Origin: a virus
Length of the DNA stretch: 64,000 nt
Reading direction: 5' to 3' (one strand)
Virus record (IMG/VR): IMGVR_UViG_3300045988_085681
Coordinates: 1-64,000 of that record
The notes beneath the pieces were generated by a model. It did not search any database. It was not told the DNA's origin and saw only the letters and a program-made list of their open reading frames with translations. Position numbers and translations under genes: made by a program. This document shows, in pieces, positions 39,814-64,000 of the stretch (its first letter is position 1; each line of letters begins with the position of its first letter).

Positions 39814-39814
39814 T

Positions 39815-47211: not shown

Positions 47212-47223
47212 ACAATTATATTA

Positions 47224-48227: not shown

Positions 48228-48228
48228 A

Positions 48229-48591: not shown

Positions 48592-48859
48592 ACCTAAAGT
48601 TAAATATGTTTCTCCTATTAAAGATTATTCAGTATCCTATGATGCAGTTATTAAAATTAGACAAACAAGTCTTCAACCAATAATACCTGCTAAGATTAGG
48701 ACTGATAAAAGAAACTTCGTTGGAAAACTTCCTAAAGAAGTTCTTAATCAATTATCTAAGATTATATCAGAAGCTATTAAATCATCATGCTCTTTCTGCA
48801 CAGAAGTAGTTTCTGTAGATAATATAAAATTTGATCAAACCTTAATAAAAGAAGATTAA
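48527..48859 (+). CDS. hypothetical protein
   Basis: ORF track; overlaps the previous ORF. Confidence 0.35.
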   Translation: MNMKQLRNMPRKKVSITVVESKPKVKYVSPIKDYSVSYDAVIKIRQTSLQPIIPAKIRTDKRNFVGKLPKEVLNQLSKIISEAIKSSCSFCTEVVSVDNIKFDQTLIKED

Positions 48860-49203
48860 TGATTTATTTTATTATAGAGGATTCTCATTTTGGCTCTCAT
48901 GTAGAACAAATATCTACTGATTTTAATAAATTGAGAGAAAATTTTCCTGATGAAGTAATTTACACTACAGATTATATGAATGTAGATGACACTTTATATA
49001 ATATAATAGATTATTCTAATATGCCATATAAATCTTATGATGGTACTGAAATAACTAATTGTTACTTATATCATGATAAATTTTATGAGTGTGATGAAGA
49101 TTTGCCGGAAGGAGTAAATCCAGATGAATATATGTGCACTTTTTATAGGACTTACACAAAAGGTTATTTAACTAAAACATGGCATAAAGATGGCTGGGTA
49201 TAA
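48859..49203 (+). CDS. hypothetical protein
   Basis: ORF track. Confidence 0.4.
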   Translation: MIYFIIEDSHFGSHVEQISTDFNKLRENFPDEVIYTTDYMNVDDTLYNIIDYSNMPYKSYDGTEITNCYLYHDKFYECDEDLPEGVNPDEYMCTFYRTYTKGYLTKTWHKDGWV

Positions 49204-50014
49204 TTTAATTACAGACGATAGTGAAGCACTACAAGCTTACCTAAATAACATTACTCATTCTACCCCATTATCTTTAGAGGAAGAGAAAGAATGCGCTGAC
49301 ACTGGAGATTGGGAGAAATTAGTAAATGCTAATTTAAAGTTTGTAGTAACTGTAGCTAAAAAGTTTCAGAATAAAGGACTACCTTTATCGGATTTAATAG
49401 CTGAAGGAAATGTAGGTCTTATTCATGCTAGCCGCTTATATAAAAGTGAATATAATGTTAAATTTATAACTTATGCTGTATGGCATATAAGTGAAGCTAT
49501 TCGTAGAGCTATTCATTATAAAGCAGATACTGTTAGAGTTCCTGTAAGTCAAAAACTTACTTATAATAAGGCTGCTAAAGTTATAAATAAATATTGGCAA
49601 ACTGAAGATAGACCTCCATCAGATGAAGAGTTGGAAGAAGCTACTGGTAAAACTATGAAACAAATTAATGGAGCTATAAATGCTAAAAAAGTATGTATGT
49701 CTTTAGACACTCCATTAGGTAGTAATGATGATGACAGAGACTCTACTTTAGTAGACATTGTTAAAAACAATAATAGTCCTCTAGCAGATAATAATATAGA
49801 ACAGTCTTATAAGACTAATGTTATTAACAAAGTTTTAAATGGACTTTCTAATAAAGAACATGACATAATAATTTTATGCTATGGATTTACTGGGCAAGAA
49901 TATACTCCTGAACTTATATCTCCTTTATTTGGGTGTACACCAGAACGTATCAGACAAATTAGGAGAGAAGCAGTCAAGAAACTTAGAAAAAGAAAAATTC
50001 TTAAAAACATTTAA
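49190..50014 (+). CDS. RNA polymerase sigma-70 family factor
   Basis: Region 2 LIAEGNVGLIHASRLYK...FITYAVWHISEAIRRAI. Region 4 HTH LFGCTPERIRQIRREAVKKLR. Confidence 0.8.
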   Translation: MAGYNLITDDSEALQAYLNNITHSTPLSLEEEKECADTGDWEKLVNANLKFVVTVAKKFQNKGLPLSDLIAEGNVGLIHASRLYKSEYNVKFITYAVWHISEAIRRAIHYKADTVRVPVSQKLTYNKAAKVINKYWQTEDRPPSDEELEEATGKTMKQINGAINAKKVCMSLDTPLGSNDDDRDSTLVDIVKNNNSPLADNNIEQSYKTNVINKVLNGLSNKEHDIIILCYGFTGQEYTPELISPLFGCTPERIRQIRREAVKKLRKRKILKNI

Positions 50015-51432
50015 ATGATTTATTTAGTTACCAAGGTTAAAGCTTTATTCAAATCTTCTAAATATGAATGTATTTCCATAGAAAGAAGTAAGGAAATTAT
50101 TAATTCTATGAAAAAAATTAGAGGATTAGATACTGAAACTATGGGACTAAATCCCCATACTAAAGCATTATTAACAGTTCAGATAGGTACTAAAGAAAAT
50201 CAAGTAGTAATTGATTGTACTACTATAAACATTTGGGAATATAAAGATATATTAGAAGATTCTACTATTCTATATATTTTAGCTAATGCTAAATTTGATA
50301 TTCAATTCTTCTTTAAACATAACATTATATTATCTAAAGTATGGGATGTAATGTTAGCTGAAAAGATTAGATATTTGGGATATCCTAAAGGTAGTTTCCA
50401 TGCTGACTTAAAGACTCTTGAATACAAGTATCTTAATAAATATATGGATAAAACTGTTCGAGGTAAAATTACTAAAGTTGGTCTAACTGAGGAAGTAATA
50501 GTTTATGCAGCTAATGATGTAGTAGATTTGGAAGATTTAATGAATGCCCAAATAAAAGCACTAGAAAAAGAAGATTTGGTAAAGGCAGTACAATTAGAGA
50601 ATAGATTTGTTATCCCATTGGCTTATATGGAATGGTGTGGAGTAAAATTAGACGTAGAAAAATGGAAAGCTAAAATGGTAAAAGATGCTAAACGTTTAAA
50701 GGTTGCTCTAACTAAATTAAATAATTGGGTAGTAAAACACTATGGAAATGATTCTAGATTTACTAAGGTAGATTTACAAGGGGATTTATTTTCAGGATTT
50801 AATACTGACCCACAGTGTACTATAAATTGGAATAGTGCAGCTCAAGTAATTCCATTATTTAAAGCTATTGGAATAAATACTTCTACTGTAGATAGTAAAA
50901 CAAAGAAATTAAAAGATTCTGTAGATGCTAAATTATTAGAGCCTCAAGCTAAGGATTTTGAAATTCTTCCTATTTATCTAGATTATAAGGAAGCTCAAAA
51001 AGTATGTTCTACTTATGGACAGAACTGGTTAGACCAAATAAATTCCGAAACTGGTAGAGTATATACTAAGTTTAATCAGTTAGGTACTAATACTGCTAGA
51101 ATATCTAGTGGTGGAAAAGATAAGAATGCTAAAATAGAATATGTAAATTTTCTTAATCTTCCAGCAGATCCAGAAACTAGAAGTTGTTTTATTGCAGAGA
51201 AAGGTAACTCTTGGATTTCCATAGATTATTCAGGACAAGAGTCCTTTATTATGGCTTCCATTTCTAATGATAAAGCTTTAATACATGAATTAATGGAAGG
51301 AAGTGGGGATTTGCATTCTCTAACTGCTTATATGAGTTATCCTGATCAAATACCAAGAGATACAAAAATAACAGAAATTAAAGAAAAGTATCACCATCTT
51401 AGACAAGAAGCCAAAGGCATAGAATTTGCCAT
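50015..51432 (+). CDS. family A (T7-like) DNA polymerase, exon 1 (3'-5' exo domain, palm motif A, start of motif B)
   Basis: Exo I GLDTETMG; Exo III YAANDV; motif A SIDYSGQESFIMAS; motif B begins RQEAKGIEFAI. The ORF then stops, and the motif continues in exon 2. Confidence 0.7.
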
Positions 51433-52662
51433 TAATCCTTAAATTATTGCAATTTTTATTTTGATATAATTCGCTATAAACTATATTACTATTAATAAAT
51501 ATTTTAGTAATATGGATATAGAAAAAGAATTGAAAATCAAAAACTTGTATGAAAAAGATACAAAGATTAGTGAAATTTTAAAGATTTGTAAATGTAGTAG
51601 TGCTACAGTAAATAAAGTAAGAGAAAAATATAATTTACCGAAAAGAAGGAATTCTCCCTCAAAGATTCCTATAAATGAATCTTTAGTAGTAAAATTATAT
51701 ACCGAAGGAGTAATATTAACTGAAATTACAAAAACTTGTCATTGCAGTACCAACACTGTCTCATCAATACTAGATAAATATAATATTCCTAAGCGTTCTC
51801 AGAGAATAAATAAAAAACCTAATAAGGATTTAAGTAAATTTATGGATTTAACTTCTCCAGAAACTCAATATTGGATAGGATTTATATGTGCAGATGGTAA
51901 TATAAATTATAATCCAGAAAAGAGGGCTTATAAAGTTTCTCTATTTAGTAAGGATGAAGAAGTCATAATTAAATTTATAAAATATTTTGGAGAAAATACA
52001 GTTTGTAGAAGTGACAGACCTACAGGTATAAAAGAAGCTTATATATGCTCTAAAGAACTTTGTGAATATTTTATTAATATATTAAATATTACCCCTAATA
52101 AGTCTCTTACATTAAATCCTAATATTGAGTATACTAACAATTTTATTTTAGGCTATTTTGATGGAGACGGAAGCATTAGAAACAGTTCAGAAAAACAAAT
52201 TAGATACGAGTGTAATATTACTTGTGCTAGTAAAATATTTCTGGATAAAATAAAAACTATACTTGCTAAAAATGGTATTTACTCTATTATTTATCAACAT
52301 ACTGATTGTAATGCTTACAAAATTAGAATAGATAGAAAAAATGAATCTGAAAAATTTTATCATTTTTTATACAAAGATGCAGTAGTTTGTTTATCAAGAA
52401 AATTGAAAAACTTTGTGGCACTCTATGGAAACATAGGGAATGAAAAATTGGGTGAATTGCAGGAACTTAAGGAAAATCTGCAGCCAAGCCAACCTTTAAC
52501 AAAGTTGGAAGGTTCAACGACTAACTCTTGAAACTTCGTAAGAAGAATATAATAGAGACACGAGCGCCCAACACCTAAACTATAAAGTAAGGTGATGAAA
52601 TAGTCTAGCCTATATGGTAACATATAGAGTCTCAGATAAAGAGCTGAGAGTTAATACAAGCG
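51433..52662 (+). other. group I-type intron 1 in the DNA polymerase gene (boundaries approximate)
   Basis: Polymerase motif B is split (FAI | NYGG). Exon 1 would end on U and exon 2 would follow a G. The insert contains a free-standing LAGLIDADG ORF. Confidence 0.55.
51512..52531 (+). CDS. LAGLIDADG homing endonuclease (intron-encoded) with N-terminal HTH repeats
   Basis: Two dodecapeptide motifs, YWIGFICADGNI and LGYFDGDGSI. Duplicated HTH-like N-terminus. Confidence 0.75.
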   Translation: MDIEKELKIKNLYEKDTKISEILKICKCSSATVNKVREKYNLPKRRNSPSKIPINESLVVKLYTEGVILTEITKTCHCSTNTVSSILDKYNIPKRSQRINKKPNKDLSKFMDLTSPETQYWIGFICADGNINYNPEKRAYKVSLFSKDEEVIIKFIKYFGENTVCRSDRPTGIKEAYICSKELCEYFINILNITPNKSLTLNPNIEYTNNFILGYFDGDGSIRNSSEKQIRYECNITCASKIFLDKIKTILAKNGIYSIIYQHTDCNAYKIRIDRKNESEKFYHFLYKDAVVCLSRKLKNFVALYGNIGNEKLGELQELKENLQPSQPLTKLEGSTTNS

Positions 52663-53131
52663 AAATTACGGTGGTGATTTTAACACTATTCATCGAAACA
52701 AAGGTATCTCTATAGAAGAAGCTAAAAAAATATATGAAAATTATATGTCGGGTTTCTCAGGATTAGCTAAGTATCAAGAATATTGTAGAAAAATAGTAAT
52801 GGAAAAAGGCTATATACTTCTAAATCCTATAAGTAAATATAGAGCACATATATATGATTTTGAATCTCTACGTTCAATGCAAGAAAAAATGCAAGATAGG
52901 GAATTTTGGAAGTATTATAGAGAAATGAAGCGAGAATCTCCTAACTGTGATACAGTACAAGAAGTACGAGATTTCTTTAAGAAAAAGGGTGAATGTGAAA
53001 GGAATAGTATAAATTATAGAATACAACATACTGGAGCTTTATGTTATAAAGTAAGTATGATTTATTTCTTTAAATGGATAGTAGAAAATAATCTTTTTAA
53101 TAAGGTTTTAATTACTGTTACCCCCTACGAT
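52663..53131 (+). CDS. family A DNA polymerase, exon 2 (rest of motif B, O-helix region, up to motif C)
   Basis: The open frame begins before the annotated ATG: NYGGDFNTIHRNKGISIEEAKKIY aligns with Pol I IYGMSAFGLARQLNIPRKEAQKYM. RIQHTGALCYKVSMIY aligns with PIQGSAAD. Ends ...VLITVTPYD. Confidence 0.6.
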
Positions 53132-53996
53132 AAATAATCTTGTCGTAGTAAAACGATGTTAATTGCTTGGAACTCCTAAAGATTTAATTACTAAATTATT
53201 GAAATAATAAGCCAGTAAAAATATTAAATATGATTTTACCTCAGTTAAAAGAAATGGACAATAAGCAGCTTTATAATTTTACAAGAGAACAAACTCAAGT
53301 ATTTTTAACAGGATTGCTAGGTGATGGGTGTATATCTACTACAAATAGTGGTAGTTATATTTATACTACAAGTTGTAAACATCTTGAATATTTAGAATTT
53401 AAAAAGAAATTATTAGGTAAAGGAAATATTAAACTTCAAGAAAGAAATGGTTATAGTCAAACTCCTATATATACTATGTATGGGGGAGCTTACCCAGAAT
53501 TATTTGAGTTTAAAGAATTTACTGTTCAAGATGTTATTGAAAACTTAGATTTACTTGGGTTAGCATTATGGTTTTATGATGATGGCAGCCTTCATAAAAG
53601 AGATTTATATTATAATTTAAATACTCAAAAGTTCCCAAAGTATATACAAGAAGGAATTTTTATTCCATGGTTTGATTCCTTGGGCATTAAAGCTAATTTA
53701 AGACACGATATAAAAAGAGGAAAAGAATTGTATTATTTAGGAATTAATAAATATGAAGGAGCTAATATTATTAGTGAAATACTATCACGTTATCCATTAA
53801 ATTGTTACTCTTATAAATTATGGAGTTCAGAGACTATCCTGAAATGGAGTAAGCTGCAAGAGCAGGTGAAAAGCATCGATAAAAATCTTACTAATAGGCA
53901 ATTAGCTTATAAGTGGAGATTTTTATAAGATATAGTCCGAACCTATATGAAAGTATAGGAGAATATATGGAATCGATATATTCGTAACAATATATG
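53132..53996 (+). other. group I-type intron 2 in the DNA polymerase gene (boundaries approximate)
   Basis: Splits the gene at motif C. Contains a second LAGLIDADG ORF. Exon 2 ends on U and exon 3 starts after a G. Confidence 0.5.
53230..53928 (+). CDS. LAGLIDADG homing endonuclease (intron-encoded)
   Basis: Motifs FLTGLLGDGCIS and LALWFYDDGSL. Confidence 0.7.
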   Translation: MILPQLKEMDNKQLYNFTREQTQVFLTGLLGDGCISTTNSGSYIYTTSCKHLEYLEFKKKLLGKGNIKLQERNGYSQTPIYTMYGGAYPELFEFKEFTVQDVIENLDLLGLALWFYDDGSLHKRDLYYNLNTQKFPKYIQEGIFIPWFDSLGIKANLRHDIKRGKELYYLGINKYEGANIISEILSRYPLNCYSYKLWSSETILKWSKLQEQVKSIDKNLTNRQLAYKWRFL

Positions 53997-54158
53997 GAGA
54001 TTAATTGTGAAGCACCTATAGAAATAGCTGAAAAAGTAGCTATTAGACTTCATGCTATTATGGTTAGAGCAGGAGAAATATTTTGTACTAGATGTAAGTT
54101 AGATGCAGATATCTCTAGATGTAAAGATGGGACATTACCTAATTACTGGATTCATTAA
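53997..54158 (+). CDS. family A DNA polymerase, exon 3 (C-terminus)
   Basis: DEINCEAPIEIAEKVAIRLHAIMVRAGEIFCTRCKLDADISRCKDGTLPNYWIH aligns with the T7 DNAP C-terminus DEIQVGCRTEEIAQVVIETAQEAMRWVGDHWNFRCLLDTEGKMGPNWAICH. Confidence 0.6.
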   Translation, partial: EINCEAPIEIAEKVAIRLHAIMVRAGEIFCTRCKLDADISRCKDGTLPNYWIH

Positions 54159-54159
54159 A

Positions 54160-54393
54160 ATGGAAATAACTTACATTGGTAACGACTATTCATTATATAT
54201 CGGCGGCAAAGAATTCGTTGATATAGATTACGACAAACAAAAAGAAATTTGTCATAAATTAGTAGATAAAGTTTCCGAAGGAGTTTTACAAAGATTTATA
54301 GAAATTGCTTGTACCGGAATGGGCGAGTATGAACAATTAGATTATTGTGAAACTCATGGAGAATTTGTTGATAAATACGTAATAAATATATGA
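54160..54393 (+). CDS. hypothetical protein
   Basis: ORF track, trimmed to the internal ATG just after the polymerase stop. Confidence 0.4.
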   Translation: MEITYIGNDYSLYIGGKEFVDIDYDKQKEICHKLVDKVSEGVLQRFIEIACTGMGEYEQLDYCETHGEFVDKYVINI

Positions 54394-54535
54394 CATTTAT
54401 TATAACTAATAAAGATGGTTCTAGAACTCAGTATTCTAACCATTATAACGAAGATAATGAAATTGAAGTAGATGCAGCATGGGATGATGTATATGCAAAA
54501 TTCCCTGAAGCTGATTATATTGAGCAATTTTAATT

Positions 54536-54751
54536 ATGGCTAGTAATTCACCAACGTTGATGCAATCTGAAGAGAGATTTTTAGATAATCTTAATACAGA
54601 TATTCCTTTAAAAGAAGAAGATTATACAATATGTTTTTGTATAAGTAAACAAATTTCTACAACTAATATTGAAGATATTTGTAAATCTTTGCAAAATCAC
54701 TTTTTAAGTGAAGGATGGAGCATTGATGATTTTGATTTAGAAGAAGAATGA
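54536..54751 (+). CDS. hypothetical small protein
   Basis: ORF track. Confidence 0.3.
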   Translation: MASNSPTLMQSEERFLDNLNTDIPLKEEDYTICFCISKQISTTNIEDICKSLQNHFLSEGWSIDDFDLEEE

Positions 54752-54777
54752 GTAAATTAATTATATGTATCCTTTAA

Positions 54778-55395
54778 ATGGTAGATAATTTTAATATATT
54801 TGCTCCTTGGTTTGATAATCTCTCAGACCAAGGAGATTTTTACTTTGTACAAGTAATACAAAGAAAAAAAGAATGCAATATAGGTAGTAATAATAATGTA
54901 ATTAAAGATTATCATTTCTTTGATAAAAAATCTTTTTTAAATAAAAAAGAAGAAATAATTACATTATGTAAAACTTTTAATGCTCGTGCTTATTTTTGGG
55001 TAAATCCTAGAAATTGTAAACAAGTACAATACGAGATAATTAGAGAGGCTCTAGAAGCTATAGAATGTAATTCTAAAAAGTTATTTAAATGTGTTTCTAA
55101 AGCAATAGGTCAAAGAAGAAATACTGATTATAAATCTAAATGGATATTAGATTTTGATACTAAAGATTGGAGTCTTATAAATAAATATTTAGATTTAGTT
55201 AGGGAATGTAGACCTTACACAAATATAATATTATATTATGTTCCTACAGTAAATGGCATTCATGTAATTACTCTGGGATTTGACTTAGGACAATTTAAGC
55301 AGAAGGTAGCTATAGCTAAATTAGATAATATAGATATACACAAAGATAATCCATCAGTACTTTATCATGATGATATTAGGGCTTCTAATAATTGA
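54778..55395 (+). CDS. hypothetical protein
   Basis: ORF track. Confidence 0.45.
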   Translation: MVDNFNIFAPWFDNLSDQGDFYFVQVIQRKKECNIGSNNNVIKDYHFFDKKSFLNKKEEIITLCKTFNARAYFWVNPRNCKQVQYEIIREALEAIECNSKKLFKCVSKAIGQRRNTDYKSKWILDFDTKDWSLINKYLDLVRECRPYTNIILYYVPTVNGIHVITLGFDLGQFKQKVAIAKLDNIDIHKDNPSVLYHDDIRASNN

Positions 55396-55571
55396 TATAA
55401 TTATTGTAACTATCTATGGTATAGCTTTAATAGTTATGTTAATTACAAAAGCTTCTTCAGATGAAATTATAACAGCTACTGCAATATATTGTATAGTAGC
55501 TACTATAGTAAATGGGATAATATATCTATATCCTTAGATAAATTATTTTTATAATTTTAATAATATTTGTT

Positions 55572-55790
55572 ATGTTTTTTAATAAAACTTTTACTGACGA
55601 ACTTTCTAGTATTAAATCTGCTTTTCAGTCTACTCACGATAAAACCGCTTCCCTTATAGAGCGAATGAATACTGAAATCACATCTAAAGAAAATTCTATT
55701 AAAGAGTTACAGTATGAAATTAAAGAAATTGAGAATATCAAAGCTCAGGCAGATAATTTTGTAACTAATCTTAAAAACATTCTTGATTAA
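55572..55790 (+). CDS. hypothetical coiled-coil protein
   Basis: ORF track. Confidence 0.35.
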   Translation: MFFNKTFTDELSSIKSAFQSTHDKTASLIERMNTEITSKENSIKELQYEIKEIENIKAQADNFVTNLKNILD

Positions 55791-56155
55791 TGTATAAAGT
55801 AAAAGAAACTTTTGAATATCTTGTAAACGATCCAAATAACTTTTGCTCAGTACATGATGCCTTAGAAATGGATACAAGTATGCCTTGTCCTTGTTGGGAG
55901 GGAAGTAAAGTTCCTGTAAATGAAAAAGGAGAAGAAGAATCTATCCCATGGGGTAATAGTGAAGTATCTATTACTGATATAGGTAATATTGTAAAAATTG
56001 ATAAGGATACTCTTTTAAAGTTAATTAAGAATTCTGAGAAATTATCAACATTAGAAGAGTGGGGAGTAGATAATTGGGTAAATTATGGTGAAGCCATGCA
56101 ATATTTGGATGATTCACCTGATGAAGTGTTACTTAAACAATATTTAGATGATTGA
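55790..56155 (+). CDS. hypothetical protein
   Basis: ORF track. Confidence 0.4.
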   Translation: MYKVKETFEYLVNDPNNFCSVHDALEMDTSMPCPCWEGSKVPVNEKGEEESIPWGNSEVSITDIGNIVKIDKDTLLKLIKNSEKLSTLEEWGVDNWVNYGEAMQYLDDSPDEVLLKQYLDD

Positions 56156-56663
56156 TTTTGAAACTAAAAAAGTACTGTTCATTGATTTGGACGGTACTTT
56201 AATTAAGACTATTTCAGGTAAAACATTTCCTGAAGACATTACTGATTTTAGAATACAACTTCCTGTATTAGATAAAATAATAGAAAAGATGCCTAATCTT
56301 AATATGTTTTTCATAGTAAGCAATCAAGGAGGTTTAAAGACTACTATTGATAAACGTCTTTTTAACTCTAAAATATCTGCTGTAGGAGATATATGTAGAA
56401 GTTATTTAGGTAGTAGACTTAATAAGCTTCTATTTGTTGATAATTTATATTGTTGTTCTATGGATAAGAATAATACTTATCGAAAACCTAATACTGGAAT
56501 GTTAGAACAATTATATTATCAGTATAAAGTAGAGTCTACAAATGAATGTATTATGATTGGTGATGCTTCTGGTAAACCAGGAGATTTTTCAGATTCTGAT
56601 AAGAGATGTGCTTCAAGATTTTTTATAGATTATATTGACGTTAGAGACTTTTTAGAATTATGA
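56148..56663 (+). CDS. HAD-IIIA family phosphatase (GmhB / polynucleotide 3'-phosphatase-like)
   Basis: Motif I LFIDLDGTLIKT; RKPNTGML resembles the HAD-IIIA motif (RKPxPGM). Confidence 0.55.
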   Translation: MIDFETKKVLFIDLDGTLIKTISGKTFPEDITDFRIQLPVLDKIIEKMPNLNMFFIVSNQGGLKTTIDKRLFNSKISAVGDICRSYLGSRLNKLLFVDNLYCCSMDKNNTYRKPNTGMLEQLYYQYKVESTNECIMIGDASGKPGDFSDSDKRCASRFFIDYIDVRDFLEL

Positions 56664-57034
56664 AATTAAGACTGGACGAATATTATTACATACTTAACAT
56701 AAATTATGGATGGGAAGAAATAGAAGACTATATGCCTGATGATATTGCAGACAAATATCTAGAATTTTGTGAATCCCATAACTCAGATGAAGTATATGAT
56801 TATTTAAAAAGATTATATTCATATATACAGGTAATAAACCTCGAATATACTATTCTTGATATTGATTTAGAGAAAGGTTATATTGAATACAAGGCAATTA
56901 TAAAAGTCAATAATAAGTATTATTCTTTTGATTATTATCAAAGTTCATATTGGGATTTTAAAGACACAGTAGATGAAGACACAGATTTAATAGAAGTATT
57001 TCCAAAAGAAGTAACTACAGTTATATATGTATAA
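56660..57034 (+). CDS. hypothetical protein
   Basis: ORF track. Confidence 0.4.
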   Translation: MKLRLDEYYYILNINYGWEEIEDYMPDDIADKYLEFCESHNSDEVYDYLKRLYSYIQVINLEYTILDIDLEKGYIEYKAIIKVNNKYYSFDYYQSSYWDFKDTVDEDTDLIEVFPKEVTTVIYV

Positions 57035-57055
57035 TTAACTAATAACTATATTAAT

Positions 57056-57364
57056 ATGAATGAATCTTTAAAAAAATATTCTAATATATTTAAACAAATA
57101 AAAGATTGCAAATATCCTGATATTACTATAGAGATTGATGACTATCCACTATATAATAGATCTAATGTTCATATAATTATAAGAGATAAAAATAATCCTT
57201 GGTATAGCAAATATGTAACCTCTTCCCAATACCCTTATTATGAGGCATTATGTGGAGAAGAATTACAAAGATATATAAAAAATGCTAGACAATTTTTTAA
57301 AACAACAAAGAATGAAGAAAATTTTTATTTTTCTAGTAGCTATGGCGTGTTTAACGTCTTGTAA
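57056..57364 (+). CDS. hypothetical protein
   Basis: ORF track. Confidence 0.4.
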   Translation: MNESLKKYSNIFKQIKDCKYPDITIEIDDYPLYNRSNVHIIIRDKNNPWYSKYVTSSQYPYYEALCGEELQRYIKNARQFFKTTKNEENFYFSSSYGVFNVL

Positions 57365-57758
57365 AGAACAGTTTTCTAATGGAGAACGTGTTGGTACTGT
57401 AACTAAATTTAGTAAAGCAGGAGTTTTCTGGGATTCATGGGATGGATTACTTAATGTTACTCAGACTGGTATGAATTCTAGTGGAGAGCCATTTGCTTTT
57501 TCAATGGATAATGATCGTAATGATCAGCAAAAACTTATTGATACATTAGTTAAAGCCCAAGTAGAAGGTTGGAAAATTAAGATTAAATATCATCAAGTTT
57601 GGGGGTGTAAAAATGTATTTAAAAATAGAGGAGAAAGTGATTACTTTGTAGATGATGTAATTATTCTTGATAAGAACTTCTCAAAAATTGGAGATATTGT
57701 AAAGGGAACTAATAAAACAGCTCCTCATGACACATTATATGTAAAAATAGTTAAGTAA
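57312..57758 (+). CDS. putative lipoprotein
   Basis: MKKIFIFLVAMACLTSCKEQ: signal peptide plus lipobox; start moved to the internal ATG. Confidence 0.45.
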   Translation: MKKIFIFLVAMACLTSCKEQFSNGERVGTVTKFSKAGVFWDSWDGLLNVTQTGMNSSGEPFAFSMDNDRNDQQKLIDTLVKAQVEGWKIKIKYHQVWGCKNVFKNRGESDYFVDDVIILDKNFSKIGDIVKGTNKTAPHDTLYVKIVK

Positions 57759-57759
57759 T

Positions 57760-58638
57760 ATGAAGTTAATTAAACAGTCATTTGAATTTATCAATCAAAC
57801 AGATTTCTCTTTAGTGGGAATTAAAAAGCATATTGAAAGATGTGCACGAGTTAGTTATAAAAGCGAAGATAAGATTACAGATACTTCTTATGAGAAGTTT
57901 GTAAATATGCTAGAGTCTAGAGGGCATGATAGACCTCTTGAGTTTGGCACTGTGTATTTATCTAGAACTTCTCAAAAAGAGGATAATATGGAATGGCTTG
58001 ACAAATATGCTTATAATCCTTGGAGTAAATTTAGTTTTGGAAATGGTAGTACTAGAATAAATGGAGAACTTAGAAATACTGTTTATGTGACTACTAATTA
58101 CAGAGTGATTAAAGAGCATCATTGGGAGGATGACTTACAATATCTTTGTGAACCTACAGAGTATCATCATAAGAGATACACAGTTCACATGATTCTTGAT
58201 CGCGGAGTTATGGACGAGTTTAGAACTCATGTAGGATTGTCTCATTTAGCAGAGAGCACGCGATATGTAAACTATTCTAAGAAAAAATTTGGTAGTGAGC
58301 TAACTTTTATTAAGCCATGCTGGTTAGATGATGAAAAACTGAAATTGTATGGACCTTATCATACTGTTATAAGAGATAAATCTCCTGAGAGTATATTTAT
58401 TGCTAATTTAAATAATGTAGAGAGGGATTACTTGGACTTAATTAAACTTGGCTGGACTCCTCAGCAAGCTCGTTCGGTACTTCCTTTGAGTATTAAGTCT
58501 GAACTTATCTCTTGTGGATTTAAAGATTCCTGGGAAAACTTTTTTTACCGTAGAGATGCTCCTGATGCTCATCCTATGGCTCAAGAAATAGCTAAACCAA
58601 TGCACCAAAAATTCATTGAATTAACTGAAATGAAATGA
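57760..58638 (+). CDS. thyX: flavin-dependent thymidylate synthase
   Basis: ThyX signature RTHVGLSHLAESTRY (RHR...S.RY); size fits. Confidence 0.7.
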   Translation: MKLIKQSFEFINQTDFSLVGIKKHIERCARVSYKSEDKITDTSYEKFVNMLESRGHDRPLEFGTVYLSRTSQKEDNMEWLDKYAYNPWSKFSFGNGSTRINGELRNTVYVTTNYRVIKEHHWEDDLQYLCEPTEYHHKRYTVHMILDRGVMDEFRTHVGLSHLAESTRYVNYSKKKFGSELTFIKPCWLDDEKLKLYGPYHTVIRDKSPESIFIANLNNVERDYLDLIKLGWTPQQARSVLPLSIKSELISCGFKDSWENFFYRRDAPDAHPMAQEIAKPMHQKFIELTEMK

Positions 58639-58874
58639 TTACTTTAATTATAATATACATAGCATCAATTATAGGAGCTATATTAAGTATTAGATACGAT
58701 GATGACTTTTTCGACGAAAAGCCTTGGACATTATTTTTAGTATTTTGTCCAGTAGTTAATACAGGTCTATCTATACTAGAATTAATCATCCAACTATCAT
58801 TATTATTGGATATAGTTATACATCTGAATTTAGATAAAAAATTTTATAAATTAATTAGGTTAGGACGAAAATAA
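58635..58874 (+). CDS. small membrane protein
   Basis: Two hydrophobic helices. Confidence 0.35.
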   Translation: MITLIIIYIASIIGAILSIRYDDDFFDEKPWTLFLVFCPVVNTGLSILELIIQLSLLLDIVIHLNLDKKFYKLIRLGRK

Positions 58875-59086
58875 TGAATCAATCAATTCCTATTAGTTTA
58901 TCATGTAAAAGAAAACCTTTTGATGCTATGGATGGATTATTTTCAGATGCATCTTATAATACTATGCCAGAATTCAATGGAGTTACTGCGGTATACTCTA
59001 ATAGAAAGACTAATATAGATATTTTAGGAGCTAATAAAAATAGCTTCGATAAATCTTTAACAATATTTTATATTAATGTACAGTAA
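58874..59086 (+). CDS. hypothetical small protein
   Basis: ORF track. Confidence 0.3.
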   Translation: MNQSIPISLSCKRKPFDAMDGLFSDASYNTMPEFNGVTAVYSNRKTNIDILGANKNSFDKSLTIFYINVQ

Positions 59087-60158
59087 TACAATACAAGCTA
59101 GAATAGAGGCAACATTAAAAGAATTATATAAAGTACATGATACTGTATTTAAACCAGTAGTGATGTATACTATGTATAGTAACATTCGTGCTTATTTTAT
59201 AATATTAGATAAAAATAATAAAGCACAACTTTTAAATGCTTTTGATCCTAGAGTAGTAGAACATGAAGATAAATTAGAATTAGATAGTGTAACTGATAGT
59301 CCTCGTATTTATCAAGAGTACTTCATAAAGGAATTTTCTGATAATGTAGATTATGGAATTTATATTGATGAAGATGAGATAGGTCATTATTTTACAGCAT
59401 ATGGAGAAGTTCAAATATTCAGTACTTATATCCAAGTAAATTATAATGATTATAAACAGGCTGAAAAACTTTTAGAATTTGTAAAACCACTACCTGAGGA
59501 TACTGATAAAATTGTAACTTACGATTTAGTAGTATCTACTAACACAGGATTTAGTACTACAGAATGTACAAGTTCTAGAAATATTGATATTGATGTAAAA
59601 AAGAACTACAATGATGATTTACCTTATGATAAATATAAAGAATTCTGTGAAAAGGATGGTTCTGGTTTAGCTTTAATGTTCGGAATTGCTGGAAGTGGAA
59701 AGACGAGCCTCATAAAAAAGCTTATTTATGATTGTTCTGATACTAATTTTTATATAATGGATTTTTCTATGTTACAAAATATAATTTCAGGACAATTTTT
59801 ATCTTTTCTTTTAGGATTAAAGAATGCTGTAATTATAATGGAAGATTGTGAATATGTATTAAAACGTAGAGATACTCATGAAAATCCGCTGATTAATTCT
59901 CTTCTAAATATTACAGATGGATTAGTTGGGGATGCTTTAAACATACGATTTTTATGTACTTTTAATGCAGCATTAACAGATATAGATGAAGCTTTATTAA
60001 GACCTGGAAGACTCAAAGTAAAATATGAGTTTAAAGCTCTAAATAAAGATAAAACTAAAGCTATATGTGGGGATGATAAAGCTGAAACTTTAGCAGAAAT
60101 TTATAATAGAGATAAAATAGATTTTAATAAAAAGGAACAAAGAAAGATTGGTTTTTAA
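59076..60158 (+). CDS. AAA+ ATPase
   Basis: Walker A LMFGIAGSGKTSLIKKLI; Walker B AVIIMEDCEYV. Confidence 0.55.
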   Translation: MYSNTIQARIEATLKELYKVHDTVFKPVVMYTMYSNIRAYFIILDKNNKAQLLNAFDPRVVEHEDKLELDSVTDSPRIYQEYFIKEFSDNVDYGIYIDEDEIGHYFTAYGEVQIFSTYIQVNYNDYKQAEKLLEFVKPLPEDTDKIVTYDLVVSTNTGFSTTECTSSRNIDIDVKKNYNDDLPYDKYKEFCEKDGSGLALMFGIAGSGKTSLIKKLIYDCSDTNFYIMDFSMLQNIISGQFLSFLLGLKNAVIIMEDCEYVLKRRDTHENPLINSLLNITDGLVGDALNIRFLCTFNAALTDIDEALLRPGRLKVKYEFKALNKDKTKAICGDDKAETLAEIYNRDKIDFNKKEQRKIGF

Positions 60159-60357
60159 ATTATCAGATAAGGAGTGTCAAGCAGCTAAAGAGTTTATAAA
60201 AGAACATAATAAGCAGTGTGACACTCCTTATTCAGGAGCTAATGGTTGTCCAAAATTTAGTTATATATTCTCACCTTTTGGACTAGGTACTTTTGTAGGA
60301 ATAAGATGTAATGTTTGTAAGAATGAAAAGGATATAACTGATATTGATACATGGTAA
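60148..60357 (+). CDS. small Cys-rich protein
   Basis: CDTPYSGANGCPKF...CNVCKNE. Confidence 0.35.
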   Translation: MVFKLSDKECQAAKEFIKEHNKQCDTPYSGANGCPKFSYIFSPFGLGTFVGIRCNVCKNEKDITDIDTW

Positions 60358-60893
60358 TAATAGGAATTTCTGGAAAAGCTACTTCAGGTAAAGACACTGT
60401 AGCTAATTATTATAGTAGATTTAGTAAAGCACATTGTACTACTTTACATTTTGCAGATTCTTTAAAAGATTGCTGTCAAGGATTACTTATACCATTTGGT
60501 ACTTATGATATGTCTCTACAAGAGACTAAGAAGTTAACTATTCCTTGGATGGGTAAAGGTTATACTGTCAGAAATTTACTTCAAGATGTTGGCAATGCTT
60601 TTAGACAAAGTATTACTGAAGATTTTTGGGTAAATATTATGATTGGTAAGATTGCAGCTATTAAAAAGAATGGTTCTATAGATACTATATTAATTCCAGA
60701 TGTTCGCTATCCTAACGAATTTAAAATGATAAAAGATTTAGGAGGAGAAGTATGGAGAGTTGAGAGACCTAATATTACATTAATGGACCACATTAGTGAG
60801 ACAGCATTAGATGATTATACTTTTGATAAGATTATTCAAAATAATGGAACTATAACTGATTTACAAAATAAAATTAAATGCCTAAGTATTTAG
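60351..60893 (+). CDS. deoxynucleoside monophosphate kinase (T4 gp1-like P-loop kinase)
   Basis: N-terminal P-loop MVIIGISGKATSGKDTVANY resembles T4 dNMP kinase (GVKRSGKDT). Confidence 0.6.
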   Translation: MVIIGISGKATSGKDTVANYYSRFSKAHCTTLHFADSLKDCCQGLLIPFGTYDMSLQETKKLTIPWMGKGYTVRNLLQDVGNAFRQSITEDFWVNIMIGKIAAIKKNGSIDTILIPDVRYPNEFKMIKDLGGEVWRVERPNITLMDHISETALDDYTFDKIIQNNGTITDLQNKIKCLSI

Positions 60894-61054
60894 TAACTAC
60901 TAGTAAAGATGTAATTAGATATATATCTTATGTTGTAGAAGCCAACTCTCAAGAAGAAGCTGAAGAAAATTGGTGGCAAGGAGAAATGGCAGATGAATGG
61001 TATGAGTCATCAGGAGATACTTATGTTGAAGAATCTGAAGAAATAACAGACTAA
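60878..61054 (+). CDS. small acidic protein (58 aa)
   Basis: ATG overlaps the end of the previous gene; MPKYLVTTSKDV...EENWWQGEMADEWYESSGD; below the ORF-track cutoff. Confidence 0.3.
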   Translation: MPKYLVTTSKDVIRYISYVVEANSQEEAEENWWQGEMADEWYESSGDTYVEESEEITD

Positions 61055-61266
61055 TGTTTAAAATAAATTTATTAGACATAAATGTAATAGAAGCACAAAA
61101 GTGCTGTGATTATTTTGATCAAGGATATGTTTATACAGAAGAAATATATCCAGAGTTGTTTAATAATCCGAATGCTAAAATTACTATGGTAGGAAAAATA
61201 GATATCAGTATATTGCAAGATTTAGTAAAAGAAAATAATTTAATTAATACCTTATATTGGTATTAA
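61054..61266 (+). CDS. hypothetical protein
   Basis: ORF track; last plus-strand gene before the terminator. Confidence 0.4.
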   Translation: MFKINLLDINVIEAQKCCDYFDQGYVYTEEIYPELFNNPNAKITMVGKIDISILQDLVKENNLINTLYWY

Positions 61267-61275
61267 ACATTTAAA

Positions 61276-61323
61276 GGGGCGTAGCTCAGGAGAAATCCTG
61301 GGTTACGCCCCTTATTTTTTTTT
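61276..61323 (+). terminator. strong rho-independent terminator at the strand switch
   Basis: ggggcgta-[ctcagga gaaa tcctggg]-tacgcccc, an 8-bp GC stem with an inner hairpin, followed by about 12 T. Confidence 0.7.
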
Positions 61324-61580
61324 AATTAAGTATTACTATTATTATTTACTTTTAAAGCCTAAGCGAACATACTAGTTGCTGGAATACTTGATAATGTGAA
61401 TATAGAGAGCTACTTAACAGGATCATCTAAGAAGTTTGGATTAGTTGCCATAGTAAACATATTTTTTAATTCAGTAACAGGATAAGTGTATACTGGCACA
61501 CTTATATCTCCTGAAGCTGATACTACACTAAAAGGTCCACAGAAATTACTAGGAGACTGCTATGCGCCTTTAAATATTCC

Positions 61581-64000
61581 TTTACTAAGTCCTGCTAATA
61601 CTATATTTTTCTTAGCCTCATCTTTATACCAAGCATCAAATCCTGGAACTAATACTGACTTAAACAAAATCGTCATAAATGCAAAATAAATTAAATCTGA
61701 TAATCCTTTAATAAAATTTTTAAATTCCTAAGGATTAGCTTGCAAATATTTATGGCACTCTGTTAAAGAACGTTTATTAATTAGAGTTTTAAATAAAGTT
61801 CCATAAGTTCCCATAATACCTTGAACTACTATAGGAATATTTTTTATAGCGGGAACAGAATCCTCAGATTGCTCAAAAGTTAGAGTACCATCAGATTTTA
61901 TAAATAAAGGTCTACCATTTACAGTTTCCTACTCAAATTTATCTGATTCTACTAATCTCTTTTTAGAAAAATAATTTCCAATAGTAGCATTTAGATAAGT
62001 AGTAAATTGTCCAAATCCCATACCTATAGCCATATTTTCCCACATAGCTTTACCATTCAAATCATAATTTGCATAAATATGATTTGCAAAATCTTTAATT
62101 CTATCAATTTCAGTTAGAGAATAAGGCATTGGTAATTTATTACCCATATATTCAATAGGGCTTTCTATATGATCTTTATTATATCCTCGTACTGATGCAT
62201 AATATCTTGCTTTAGCCTATAAATATTTTTCAGAACCTTTAGTTCCTTTAAAATAATCTATAAACCTTTTATCTAGAGTAGCGTCATATGTAAGTTCACC
62301 ATCTTTAGTTATATTTAAAGCACTATCTTTAGTGAGATTGCCTGTACTATCAATATCTATTACTCCATCCTATAAAGCTCTTGCTACAAACAAGGACATT
62401 CTATTTAAGAAATCAGGGCGTTTCATTGTATTATACATAATATCCCCTATATGACTAACACCACTTCTATCGGTTCTTAAGCCTGTGGCTATGTTAGCAA
62501 AGTCCAAATTAGATAAACCATACTAAATACATAACTAATTTAATAAAGTGACACTTCTAACATTAGTAAAACTTCCTTTAAATACATAATTATAAGCTTT
62601 AGTTAAGTTAGCAGTTGTTAAATCTGTCTATTTAGTGGCAATTTTTATATAATTCTACTAAAATCCTTCTAAAGTATCACGTACCATAGACTTAAAATTA
62701 AATCCTAAAAATATTTTAGATATTAATGATTTTAAAGGACTAACTACTGAAAATATCTTTTTAGAAGTATCTTCTAGAATTGATTCTCTAAAGATATTAA
62801 CTTTTAAATATTTTCCAACTTCTTTTTCAAACCAATTTAAATATGCCTTATTGTTGGCGTTAATAGATAAAGCTCTTGTATGAAATAATATAGACTAGAT
62901 CAATACTAAAGCATTATTAAACTATTTAGTTCTCTCTTCCTAAGCAACGTAACTATATAATAATGCAGGTATGTTTATTTCCCAAAATGAAGAATCATGA
63001 GTATCTAACATTTCCTACCGAAGAGTATCATCACTACTCATACTAGAGGAAAATGGATTTTTTACTCCCTAAGACATAAGATATTCTAACGTAGCATTCT
63101 ATCCAGACTATTTGTCTAAATCCATCTAATATTTTGTAAAAGTATCAAGAGGGTTCTATACTAGTTCTTTTAAATGATTCCATTTATCTTTTAAAGAACG
63201 TACTGATAAAGTCCCAGAACCTCTCATAAGAGGCGCCCTTAAATATACAGGATCTGTATCTAATAATTTTTTAAAATTAGGATCTTCATAACTAGAATAA
63301 GTAAACTCTTTATTATGCATTTTATTGGTTATTTTAGCAAAATGAAATAATGCTTTCTTCAAAAACAACCTTTCATGCTCCTTTAACTCTACACTAGTAA
63401 AAGGATTTTTAAATATCATAGTAGGATTACCATAAGAATCTTGCTCAAATAAAGGGAGAAAATATTTATTCTCATTACCTATTAAAGAACCTTCTAATTC
63501 TGAATAACCACATGCTTTAAAATACTCTCTAACAAAGTTCTAAATAGGTATGCACTATTTCATTATTTCCTCATTAGCTAAATTATTAGTTTTATTAACT
63601 ATTCTAGTAATTGCACGATAATTGCTATCAGAGATATCAGTAGGACTTACAAACCAAGATTCTAGAGAACTAAGAGGTTTAAATTGAGTTTCTGTATATA
63701 CTCCATTTAAGGTATTATAAACATAGCAAGCCTAATTATATAATTCATATAAGAATTTCTAGTTATAATCTAAACTACTGAAATTATTAGTTTTAGCTAT
63801 ATTTTTTATTTGATACTCATTCTATAAAAATTCTAAGAAAGATTTAAGAGCAGCACGTCTTGCAGCGTCAGTATTTGCTTGAGAAAGATTTTCTAAAGCT
63901 TCTTTAGTTTTAATTTTAATAGCAGACTAATCAGCATAAGTAGACTCCTGAAGTAAGTCATTAGCATAATCTAAAATTAGCTAATAATCATCTACATACT
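61581..64000 (-). CDS. late-region protein (or proteins) on the minus strand with in-frame TAG codons (amber-recoded); continues past the window end
   Basis: Hand translation of the minus strand, about 800 codons in total. Each long continuous stretch has only TAG as in-frame stops, about 20 in total, with no TAA or TGA. The peptide is protein-like throughout (for example ...GVIDIDSTGNLTKDSALNITKDGELTYDATLDKRFIDYFKG...). A real TAA lies at 61581-61583. The ORF-track fragments 61929-62147 and 63156-63419 are pieces of it. One frame discontinuity near 63140-63360 was not resolved by eye. Confidence 0.55.

What the first reader, a model, noticed from the sequence alone, without database searches (positions are those of the whole stretch)
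61581..64000. Amber (TAG) stop-codon reassignment confined to the minus-strand late region
The minus-strand coding beyond the 61276-61323 terminator is uninterrupted for more than 800 codons. I translated three long stretches by hand (about 64000-63419, 63143-62150 and 62147-61584). The only in-frame stops are about 20 TAG codons, with no TAA or TGA. At roughly 30% GC, a non-coding frame would be dominated by TAA. The peptide reads as a genuine protein and ends at a real TAA (61581-61583). The long plus-strand genes upstream (NrdD at 742 aa, the helicases, the polymerase exons) are intact under the standard code, and several end in TAG. This matches the recoded-phage pattern reported for some crAss-like and Lak phages: standard-code early genes, and TAG read as sense (usually Gln, code 15) in late genes.
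Basis: partly seen in the sequence, partly recalled or inferred. Interest (0 to 1): 0.9.

Follow-up and report, generated by a model that had tools for sequence, protein, structure and literature searches.

The report
Amber codons read as glutamine
The end of this window holds the tail of a large late gene of a gut crAss-like phage in which the stop codon TAG is used as a glutamine codon. This trick is real here, but it is already well documented for this group of phages.

Summary
The core observation holds. On the minus strand, the frame starting at 63998 runs 890 codons with 28 TAG and no TAA or TGA. The other five frames carry 49-128 stops. The stated end is wrong: 61583-61581 reads AAA in frame, and the true stop is TAA at 61328-61326, just before the terminator hairpin.

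The ORF is the C-terminal 890 residues of a conserved ~1546-aa protein (507 cluster representatives). In a 79%-identical homolog, 17 of the 28 window TAGs align with CAA/CAG, 6 with TAG and 5 with other codons.

A relative (MT835492.1) shares a 97%-identical early arm. Its plus arm (63 kb) is TAG-compatible. Every gene of its minus arm (at least 58 kb) carries TAG, 592 in all, including a Crassvirus major capsid protein.

No suppressor tRNA lies in the window. A canonical tRNA(CUA) (Rfam 63.6 bits) sits about 10-16 kb beyond the window start in near-identical relatives, including both contigs that carry the window-type late gene.

TAG-to-Gln recoding of late genes in crAss-like phages is published and proteomically validated, so this is a correct call of a known phenomenon. 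Interest is low.

The parts
61326..64000 (-). C-terminal 890 codons of a ~1546-aa late-arm gene that runs off the window end. It has 28 in-frame TAG codons read as Gln and a true stop TAA at 61328-61326.
   Evidence: Searches give the TAG first bases at 63983, 63929, 63824, 63761, 63734, 63557, 63542, 63158, 63128, 63110, 63101, 63071, 63017, 62942, 62924, 62897, 62660, 62657, 62630, 62537, 62525, 62372, 62219, 61931, 61730, 61562, 61412 and 61361. Homologs are (P0001, 96% identity, 1546 aa). Gln codon use is 28 TAG, 8 CAA and 2 CAG.
61274..61323 (.). Convergent intrinsic-terminator hairpin (18 pairs counted by the scan, 10 of them G-C) plus a T-run, between the last plus-strand gene and the stop of the recoded gene. 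It marks the boundary of the two arms.
   Evidence: GC skew flips from +0.2 to -0.16 here. Nucleotide identity to MT835492.1 and L004 drops from 90-98% to about 66% exactly at 61327.
1..61270 (+). Early replication and nucleotide-metabolism arm. It is readable under the standard code and contains no gene broken by TAG.
   Evidence: ORFs. Pfam hits: AAA, SPFH, SNF2 and DnaB helicases, NrdD, PIF1/RecD-like helicase, ATP-dependent ligase, sigma-70-like protein, PolA, Thy1, DNMK and NAMPT. The code-15 scan of the plus strand finds no convincing TAG-interrupted gene.
9172..10321 (+). Phage tRNA array (Asn-GTT, Asp-GTC, Thr-TGT, Met-CAT, Ala-TGC). It contains no amber suppressor.
   Evidence: ARAGORN; Rfam.
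26580..26585 (+). Tandem TAG-TAA stop of early gene 25812-26582, which terminates under either code.
60891..60896 (+). Tandem TAG-TAA stop of the DNMK gene 60351-60893. The L004 homolog also carries one in-frame TAG and ends in TAA.

Best explanation
The window comes from a large crAss-like phage (Crassvirales, probably the Zeta group; relatives are 169-181 kb). The genome has two arms.

The plus arm (1-61.3 kb here) encodes replication and nucleotide-metabolism functions and can be translated by an uninfected standard-code host. TAG is absent inside these genes. Where TAG ends a well-supported gene, a TAA follows within 0-3 codons.

The minus arm begins in the window with its last gene (61326-64000). 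It uses TAG as the main glutamine codon (74% of Gln codons in this gene) and terminates only with TAA or TGA.

Decoding is done by a phage-encoded amber suppressor, tRNA(CUA). Its D-arm, U1:A72 pair and A73 match the phage's own tRNA-Gln(UUG). In near-identical relatives it lies outside the window, next to the point where the two arms diverge, and it is presumably charged by host GlnRS.

Shown: the recoding itself, the Gln identity, its restriction to one module, and the tRNA(CUA) in relatives.

Inferred: that this genome carries the same tRNA, that the host GlnRS charges it, and that the arrangement delays translation of late proteins until the suppressor has accumulated (the published model).
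For: - Open frame of 890 codons with 28 TAG and no TAA or TGA; chance probability at most 1e-21.
- Full-length conserved homologs. The public gene calls for them do not translate under table 11, so they were made with TAG as sense.
- TAG aligns with CAA/CAG: 17 Gln, 6 TAG and 5 other in the 79% homolog. Over all pairs Gln is the commonest sense partner, 151 against 67 for Glu, the next. In distant homologs, TAG columns resemble Gln columns most (r = 0.76; Gln enriched 2.6-fold).
- The Gln fraction of the gene is 1.1% without TAG and 4.3% with it. Early genes have 2.8%.
- MT835492.1, whose early arm is 96.8% identical, has a plus arm with 0-1 TAG in almost all open frames and a minus arm with TAG in all but one listed open frame. 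The curated minus-arm genes hold 592 TAG, 60% of Gln codons. The arm includes a protein that matches Pfam Crass_capsid at 40.4 bits against a cut-off of 27 and PHROG major head protein.
- A tRNA(CUA) was found in 6 of 13 relatives' loci. It has a canonical cloverleaf and scores 63.6 bits on Rfam tRNA. An exact 46-nt match occurs in 6 IMG/VR contigs. These include both contigs (106278 and 076860) that carry the window-type late gene at 97% amino-acid identity and 97-98% identical early genes.
- Literature: late-gene TAG-to-Gln recoding in crAss-like phages (PMC7886860; bioRxiv 10.1101/2021.08.26.457843), validated by metaproteomics in 191-kb and 94-kb crAss-like phages (PMC9523058); amber-suppressing Zeta genomes with tRNA-CTA and polA (PMC12386605).
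Against: - No suppressor tRNA, release factor or aminoacyl-tRNA synthetase was found inside the window (Pfam on 30 of the larger ORFs).
- None was found in the 121.6-kb partial relative MT835492.1 either.
- The tRNA's overall identity to phage tRNA-Gln (68%) is no higher than to tRNA-Lys (69%). Its isotype therefore rests on local features and on the codon alignment.
- Only one gene of the recoded arm lies in the window, and its function is unknown. 'Late' is inferred from relatives.
- Genes with 49 to 128 TAG need near-complete suppression per codon. A tRNA alone, competing with host RF1, may not provide that, and the missing component was not identified.
- The temporal-regulation role is a published hypothesis and is not tested here.
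Confidence: 0.9

Rival explanations
1. TAG is reassigned to an amino acid other than glutamine, for example pyrrolysine (ARAGORN labels any CUA tRNA 'Pyl'), Tyr, Lys, Glu or Trp.
For: At 49% identity the window's TAGs align with a mix of residues (K, T, A, E). The suppressor's overall identity to tRNA-Lys is as high as to tRNA-Gln. ARAGORN gives the label tRNA-Pyl.
Against: In the closest informative homolog, 17 of 22 non-TAG partners are CAA/CAG, close to the overall 79% identity. Gln is the most enriched residue and the best profile match in 86 distant homologs. The tRNA has canonical G18G19 and a TPsiC loop, unlike tRNA-Pyl (the features of tRNA-Pyl are from general knowledge). No pyl genes turned up among the scanned ORFs. 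Gln insertion was shown by MS in related phages (PMC9523058).
Confidence: 0.03
2. The phage does not supply the decoder. Either the host reads TAG as sense, or a host-encoded suppressor is used. On this view the plus/minus difference only reflects different evolutionary histories of two recombined modules.
For: No tRNA(CUA) in the window or in MT835492.1. Seven of 13 relatives' loci lack a detectable one. The two arms do have different histories (sharp identity break at 61327). Yutin et al. raise a host suppressor as a possibility (PMC7886860).
Against: Both relatives with the window-type late gene carry the tRNA(CUA). Several loci that lack it are truncated or start too close to it. Ten early ORFs end in TAG and three have an immediate TAA backup, which makes sense only if TAG is a stop for at least part of the cycle. 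Hosts predicted for this phage group are standard-code Bacteroidales (PMC12386605; bioRxiv 10.1101/2021.08.26.457843).
Confidence: 0.05
3. The region is a decayed pseudogene, non-coding DNA or an assembly artefact, and the TAG-only pattern is compositional.
For: Under table 11 the region is broken into ORFs of at most 87 aa. There is no Pfam, PHROG or PDB hit.
Against: The probability of no TAA or TGA in 890 codons is at most 1e-21. The same gene is conserved at full length (about 1500 aa) in hundreds of cluster representatives, with 8 invariant and 34 nearly invariant residues across 90 sequences. Independent assemblies (ENA, Logan, IMG/VR, GenBank) show the same TAG-rich frames.
Confidence: 0.01

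Closest known systems
TAG-to-Gln (genetic code 15) recoding of late genes in crAss-like phages (Yutin et al. 2021, PMC7886860; Borges et al., bioRxiv 10.1101/2021.08.26.457843; Peters et al. 2022, PMC9523058)
   Same: In-frame TAG is restricted to the structural/late block. The replication block is readable in the standard code. TAG aligns with Gln. A phage tRNA(CUA) is present. The two blocks coincide with GC-skew arms. The phages come from human gut samples.
   Different: Nothing essential differs. Recoding here is heavy: TAG makes up 60-74% of Gln codons across the arm. Borges et al. report that only four gene families prefer TAG in the ~105-kb crAss-like phages. The decoder lies outside the window.
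Zeta crAss-like phages (proposed 'Echekviridae'): amber-suppressing, polA, tRNA-CTA genomes of 155-189 kb (PMC12386605, Table 1)
   Same: Relatives' contigs are 169-181 kb. They show a family A DNA polymerase with mobile-element insertions, a tRNA block near the start of the early arm, tRNA-CTA, amber suppression, and TAG-TAA tandem stops in unsuppressed genes.
   Different: GC content here is 29.5%, against 31-36% for the amber-suppressing genomes listed in the part of Table 1 that was read. No TerL phylogeny was done, so the clade assignment is not established.
Lak megaphages (TAG recoding, Prevotella hosts)
   Same: TAG is read as sense in late and structural genes, with suppressor tRNAs.
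   Different: Lak genomes are larger than 540 kb (general knowledge) and recoded modules are scattered; some encode RF2 (bioRxiv 10.1101/2021.08.26.457843). Here the capsid is crAss-type, the genome is about 170-180 kb, there are two contiguous arms, and no RF2 was seen.
Pyrrolysine decoding of UAG
   Same: UAG is read by a tRNA with a CUA anticodon.
   Different: This tRNA has a canonical cloverleaf, no pyl genes were seen, and TAG aligns with Gln codons.

Membership tests
Code-15 (TAG-to-Gln) recoded phage module | Conserved protein-coding genes contain multiple in-frame TAG but no in-frame TAA or TGA, and end in TAA or TGA. | tested here: met
   28 TAG with no TAA or TGA in 890 codons; stop is TAA. 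Homolog genes carry 17-49 TAG and the neighbouring late genes 33-107 TAG; all end in TAA or TGA.
Code-15 (TAG-to-Gln) recoded phage module | TAG positions correspond to glutamine in homologs. | tested here: met
   17 of 22 non-TAG partners are CAA/CAG in the 79% homolog. The best profile match is to Gln columns.
Code-15 (TAG-to-Gln) recoded phage module | The phage encodes a suppressor tRNA with anticodon CUA. | tested here: inconclusive
   Absent from the window. Present in near-identical relatives, including both contigs with the window-type late gene. This genome's own copy would lie beyond the window start.
Code-15 (TAG-to-Gln) recoded phage module | Early and replication genes are compatible with the standard code. 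| tested here: met
   92% coding density under table 11 on the plus strand. No TAG-split gene was found.
Code-15 (TAG-to-Gln) recoded phage module | Gln is actually inserted at UAG during infection. | not testable with these tools
   Needs proteomics. Done for other crAss-like phages (PMC9523058).
Crassvirales (crAss-like phages), Zeta group | crAss-type major capsid protein. | tested here: met
   The capsid protein in the late arm of relative MT835492.1 matches Pfam PF23898 Crass_capsid at 40.4 bits (cut-off 27) and phrog_11589. It was not tested on the window itself, which lacks the gene.
Crassvirales (crAss-like phages), Zeta group | Replication block with DnaB and SNF2 helicases, an AAA+ ATPase, a DNA polymerase (A or B) and nucleotide-metabolism enzymes. 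| tested here: met
   The DnaG-type primase was not identified.
Crassvirales (crAss-like phages), Zeta group | [quoted passage not shown] | tested here: met
   Relatives' contigs are 169-181 kb. PolA is in three exons, with two insertions bearing LAGLIDADG ORFs.
Crassvirales (crAss-like phages), Zeta group | Giant virion RNA polymerase with a DxDxD catalytic motif in the transcription block. | tested here: inconclusive
   The 3401-aa protein two genes upstream in MT835492.1 has the motif GADYDIDKAY, but there is no sequence hit to solved structures.
Crassvirales (crAss-like phages), Zeta group | TerL, portal and capsid phylogeny places the phage within the Zeta clade. | not tested
   TerL was not among the sequences held. 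The capsid protein finds only two unannotated records by tblastn.

The most novel reading that the evidence does not exclude
Suppression must be almost complete for these genes to be made. This gene family has 49 TAG per protein, and the neighbouring giant protein has 107-128. A lone suppressor tRNA competing with host RF1 may not achieve that. The early arm might therefore encode further, undescribed code-switch machinery among its many unannotated ORFs, such as an RF1 antagonist. The phage tmRNA-like gene at 2546-2881 might belong to the same programme, for example by handling ribosomes that read through host TAG stops. Nothing here tests this. It rests on arithmetic and on the co-occurrence of a tmRNA gene with the recoding in this lineage.
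Probability: 0.15. Interest if true: 0.65.

Novelty: already known. Interest (0 to 1): 0.2.

Why it matters
As a discovery it adds little. TAG-to-Gln recoding of late genes in crAss-like phages has been described, surveyed and confirmed by proteomics. Public gene catalogues already call this very gene family with TAG as sense.

It matters in practice. Annotating this window with table 11 would shred everything beyond 61.3 kb. The case also gives a clean worked example: a sharp code boundary at a convergent terminator, TAG as the majority Gln codon, and TAG-TAA tandem stops that make early genes safe under both decoding states.

Tried and rejected
- **Suppressor tRNA in the window.** ARAGORN at default and relaxed thresholds, and Rfam at gathering and E-value thresholds on 8200-13300, found none. 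ARAGORN with introns allowed at 80% threshold gave 112 calls, which are plainly noise and were discarded.
- **Suppressor tRNA in MT835492.1.** None found. The record is partial.
- **Function of the late protein.** PHROGs, and PDB sequence and profile searches, gave nothing significant. A hint of an N-terminal PD-(D/E)XK or exonuclease domain appears in distant members, outside the window. The AlphaFold2 model of a 510-aa homolog had pLDDT 41, so no fold search was run.
- **Profile search of the representative library.** It failed because the profile exceeded 1200 positions. P0011 was used instead.
- **Possible TAG read-through gene in the early arm (33171-34094).** The shared frame is explained by a 26-nt tandem duplication at 33409-33460. 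No homolog spans the junction informatively. Left as ambiguous; probably two genes.
- **The open frame 53929-54393 with a TAG at 54100.** It is not PolA. PolA exon 3 is in another frame and ends at 54156-54158.
- **RNAP identity of the 3401-aa neighbour.** Motif only, with no PDB sequence hit.
- **tblastn of the relative's capsid protein against annotated phages.** It found only two unannotated records. Pfam settled the question instead.
Full report
**Observation.** The window is 64 kb at 29.5% GC. On the minus strand, the frame whose first full codon is 63998-63996 contains 25 TAG and no TAA or TGA between 63998 and 61581. The other five frames of the same stretch contain 49-128 stops, mostly TAA. 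The in-frame codon at 61583-61581 is AAA, and the TTA at 61582-61584 is out of frame. Three more TAG follow, at 61562, 61412 and 61361, and the first non-TAG stop is TAA at 61328-61326.

The open stretch is therefore 890 codons with 28 TAG. It ends just past the T-run of a strong hairpin at 61274-61313, for which the scan counts 18 pairs, 10 of them G-C. Using the TAA+TGA frequency of the other two minus-strand frames, or the mononucleotide expectation, the chance of 890 codons without TAA or TGA is 10^-21 to 10^-54. Under table 11, the only ORF of at least 80 aa listed beyond 61329 is 87 aa.

**It is a real, conserved gene.** With TAG written as Q, the translation finds full-length proteins of 1534-1552 aa. 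They include P0001 at 96% identity, three at 79%, six at 48-49% and one at 24%. The window fragment corresponds to residues 654-1543 of P0001. A search with a 510-aa homolog against 1.8 billion cluster representatives gives 507 hits at E of 0.001 or better, nearly all about 1450-1670 aa and matching at their C-terminal third. An alignment of 90 members has 8 invariant and 34 nearly invariant residues.

None of the public gene calls for these proteins translates to the deposited protein under table 11. The catalogue therefore already used a TAG-sense table. At the DNA level the homologous genes carry 17-49 TAG and end in TAA. The neighbouring upstream genes carry 33-107 TAG in the loci held, and 128 TAG in the complete 3401-codon gene of MT835492.1.

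**Which amino acid.** I aligned the gene codon by codon with five homologous loci. Against the 79% homolog (L005), the window's 28 TAG face 17 CAA/CAG, 6 TAG and 5 other codons. That is 77% Gln among non-TAG partners, about the overall identity of the pair. Over all pairs of loci, Gln is by far the commonest sense partner of TAG (151, against 67 for Glu and 66 for Lys).

In 86 more distant family members, Gln is the most enriched residue at the window's TAG columns (2.6-fold). The log-odds substitution profile of those columns correlates best with that of the window's ordinary Gln columns (r = 0.76; His 0.60, Glu 0.53). Some Q in those proteins may themselves come from TAG, so the codon-level result is the non-circular one. 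The gene has 8 CAA and 2 CAG, so its Gln content is 1.1% without TAG and 4.3% with it. Early genes have 2.8%.

**The other arm.** Plus-strand ORFs of at least 50 aa cover 92% of 1-61300 under table 11. Pfam identifies a replication and nucleotide-metabolism module:
- AAA ATPases and an SPFH/flotillin protein
- SNF2-type and DnaB helicases, and a PIF1/RecD-like helicase
- NrdD with an ATP-cone
- an ATP-dependent ligase
- a sigma-70-like protein
- PolA, Thy1, DNMK and NAMPT

PolA is in three exons separated by two insertions, each with a LAGLIDADG ORF. A relative has an uninterrupted 682-aa PolA. A scan for plus-strand frames that would merge if TAG were sense finds nothing convincing. The one long case, 33168-34094, is explained by a 26-nt tandem duplication at 33409-33460. 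The duplication creates the TAG and shifts the upstream ORF into the frame of the next gene.

Stop usage on this arm is TAA 64, TGA 35 and TAG 10. Among ORFs of at least 100 aa it is 40, 22 and 4. For the three best-supported genes that end in TAG, a TAA follows after 0, 0 and 2 codons (25812-26582, 60351-60893, 40421-41128). The early arm is thus better described as safe under both codes than as using TAG as a stop. The same TAG-then-TAA habit is described for Zeta crAss-like phages (PMC12386605).

**Whole-genome picture from relatives.** GenBank MT835492.1 is an unannotated 121.6-kb record from human faeces. It is 96.8% identical to window 40000-61327. Reading its frames with only TAA and TGA as stops gives a plus arm (1-63.3 kb) with 0-1 TAG in almost all open frames. 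It also gives a minus arm (63.7-121.6 kb) in which all but one listed open frame carry TAG, up to 128 in a 3401-codon gene.

Over that arm's curated genes TAG supplies 592 of 989 Gln codons (60%). The share is only 13-17% in the capsid protein and two neighbouring genes. The 474-aa protein at 113760-115187 matches Pfam PF23898, Crassvirus major capsid protein (40.4 bits, cut-off 27), and a PHROG major head protein. The recoded arm is therefore the structural, late arm, and the phage is crAss-like. GC skew is about +0.2 on the plus arm and about -0.2 on the minus arm, flipping at the boundary in both the relative and the window.

Contigs in IMG/VR with 93-98% identical early genes are up to 169-181 kb. 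That size, together with polA, the intron load and amber suppression, fits the Zeta group (PMC7886860, PMC12386605). I did not do a TerL phylogeny, so this assignment is probable rather than established. The 3401-aa protein has a GADYDIDKAY motif reminiscent of the crAss virion RNA polymerase. There is no sequence-level support for that identity.

**The decoder.** The window has five tRNAs (Asn, Asp, Thr, Met, Ala; 9172-10321) and none with a CUA anticodon. MT835492.1 has none either. Walking upstream in relatives revealed a second tRNA cluster. About 6-8.5 kb beyond it lies a 72-nt tRNA with anticodon CUA on the minus strand, in 6 of 13 loci. It has a canonical cloverleaf and the highest Rfam tRNA score in its region, 63.6 bits.

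Its first 46 nt occur exactly in six IMG/VR contigs. Two of them, 106278 and 076860, are the only IMG/VR contigs with the window-type late gene (97% amino-acid identity). They also carry 97-98% identical early genes. In window terms the tRNA would lie roughly 10-16 kb before position 1, among small minus-strand ORFs next to the point where the two arms diverge.

The tRNA shares U1:A72, A73 and a near-identical D-arm (TATGGTGTAATGGT(T)AGCAC) with the phage's own tRNA-Gln(UUG). Overall identity (68%) does not separate Gln from Lys (69%). Charging by host GlnRS is an inference from general knowledge that U35-containing amber suppressors are good GlnRS substrates. Left of the tRNA, relatives have two plus-strand ORFs of about 370-390 codons with 8-10 TAG. 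Recoding therefore follows modules and is not strictly bound to a strand.

**Mechanism.** The best-supported reading is the published one. Early genes are translated with the host's code. The phage supplies tRNA(CUA)-Gln. Late genes, which cannot be completed while TAG terminates, are then read through (bioRxiv 10.1101/2021.08.26.457843; PMC7886860). Gln insertion at TAG was shown by MS/MS for 191-kb and 94-kb crAss-like phages (PMC9523058).

What I could show here is the recoding, the Gln identity, the module restriction and the tRNA in near-identical genomes. The timing role is inferred. One open point concerns efficiency. With 49 TAG in this gene family and over 100 in its giant neighbour, per-codon read-through must be close to complete. 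No release factor or other helper was recognised among the 30 larger window ORFs scanned with Pfam.

**Comparison and verdict.** This is a correct identification of a known phenomenon in a known phage group. It needs two corrections: the ORF end, and the count of TAG. It also needs one nuance: early TAG stops are backed by TAA.

Other readings fail. A pseudogene is excluded by conservation. Another amino acid is contradicted by the codon alignment. A host decoder is unlikely given the phage tRNA in the closest relatives. Novelty: already known. Interest: low.

**Things seen on the way:**
- a tmRNA-like gene at 2546-2881 with a rewritten T-arm
- a sharp drop in identity exactly at 61327, which indicates module exchange at the convergent terminator
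- a split NAMPT gene
- an odd 85-nt tRNA with an ambiguous anticodon loop in relatives

Noticed in passing
window 2546-2881 (+): A tmRNA-like gene. It scores 23.6 bits on Rfam RF00023, below the gathering score of 47 (E = 2e-7 for the 900-nt stretch searched), and ARAGORN does not call it. It is 93% identical to loci in relatives where ARAGORN does call a tmRNA with the tag ARVINMTPVSYAIAA*. The tag ORF is identical, but the T-arm is replaced by a different stem-loop (GACGG-GGCAGTA-CCGTC). A phage tmRNA in a lineage that suppresses TAG may not be a coincidence. It is not mentioned in the Zeta crAss paper that was read.
   Followed up: partly
window 50015-54158 (+): The family A DNA polymerase is in three exons (about 50015-51430, 52640-53130 and 53990-54158). 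They are separated by two insertions, each carrying a LAGLIDADG homing-endonuclease ORF (51512-52531, 53230-53928). Relative L004 has an uninterrupted 682-aa PolA.
   Followed up: partly
window 61327 (arm boundary): Nucleotide identity to MT835492.1 and L004 is 90-98% across the early arm up to 61327. It then falls to about 66% (49% amino-acid identity) in the adjacent late gene, while L002 and L003 stay at 94% throughout. This is a recombination junction exactly at the convergent terminator, so early and late arms are exchanged as modules.
   Followed up: partly
window 33409-33460 (+): An exact 26-nt tandem duplication (CAGATAATTTTAGATTATTAGAATTT, two copies) creates the TAG at 33453-33455. 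It also puts ORFs 33171-33455 and 33474-34094 in one frame, mimicking a TAG read-through gene in the early arm.
   Followed up: partly
window 13677-15438 (+): The nicotinamide phosphoribosyltransferase is split into two ORFs: 13677-14519 (NAMPT_N plus the start of NAPRTase) and 14596-15438 (the rest of NAPRTase). A 76-nt gap separates them. This could be a frameshift, a small insertion or an intron.
   Followed up: no
window 26580-26585, 60891-60896, 41126-41137 (+): Early genes that end in TAG have a TAA immediately after it, or two codons later. They therefore terminate at nearly the same place whether or not TAG is suppressed.
   Followed up: yes
relatives: L095 10407-10490, L088-L098 at equivalent positions: An 85-nt tRNA with a long variable arm (Rfam 53 bits) has an ambiguous anticodon loop. 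ARAGORN reads it as 'Stop(tta)', 'Tyr(ata)' or undetermined, depending on a T-run length polymorphism. It occupies the slot where relative L100 has tRNA-Leu(TAA). An ochre suppressor would be paradoxical in a genome that stops mostly on TAA. It may be a degenerate tRNA.
   Followed up: partly
relatives: L089 276-2512 (+), L091 322-2568 (+): Two plus-strand ORFs of about 370-390 codons carry 8-10 in-frame TAG and no TAA or TGA, just beyond the suppressor tRNA. There are no PHROG hits. They show that recoding is not strictly limited to the minus strand in this lineage.
   Followed up: partly
MT835492.1 110731-115187 (L009): Within the recoded arm, the capsid protein and two neighbouring genes use TAG for only 13-17% of Gln codons, against 57-71% in the giant proteins. 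This looks like selection against the recoded codon in the most highly expressed genes.
   Followed up: no
window 49190-50014 (+): A sigma-70-like protein (regions 2, 3 and 4) is encoded directly upstream of PolA in the early arm. It is conserved in relative L004.
   Followed up: no
P0001 residues about 140-320 (outside the window, upstream part of the same gene): The ~1500-aa late protein family has a conserved N-terminal motif, GxIDxLxID...IYxxKxS. Distant members hit exonuclease PHROGs (E = 6e-7) and weakly hit a PD-(D/E)XK protein in the PDB. This suggests a nuclease domain in an otherwise uncharacterised, mostly helical protein.
   Followed up: partly
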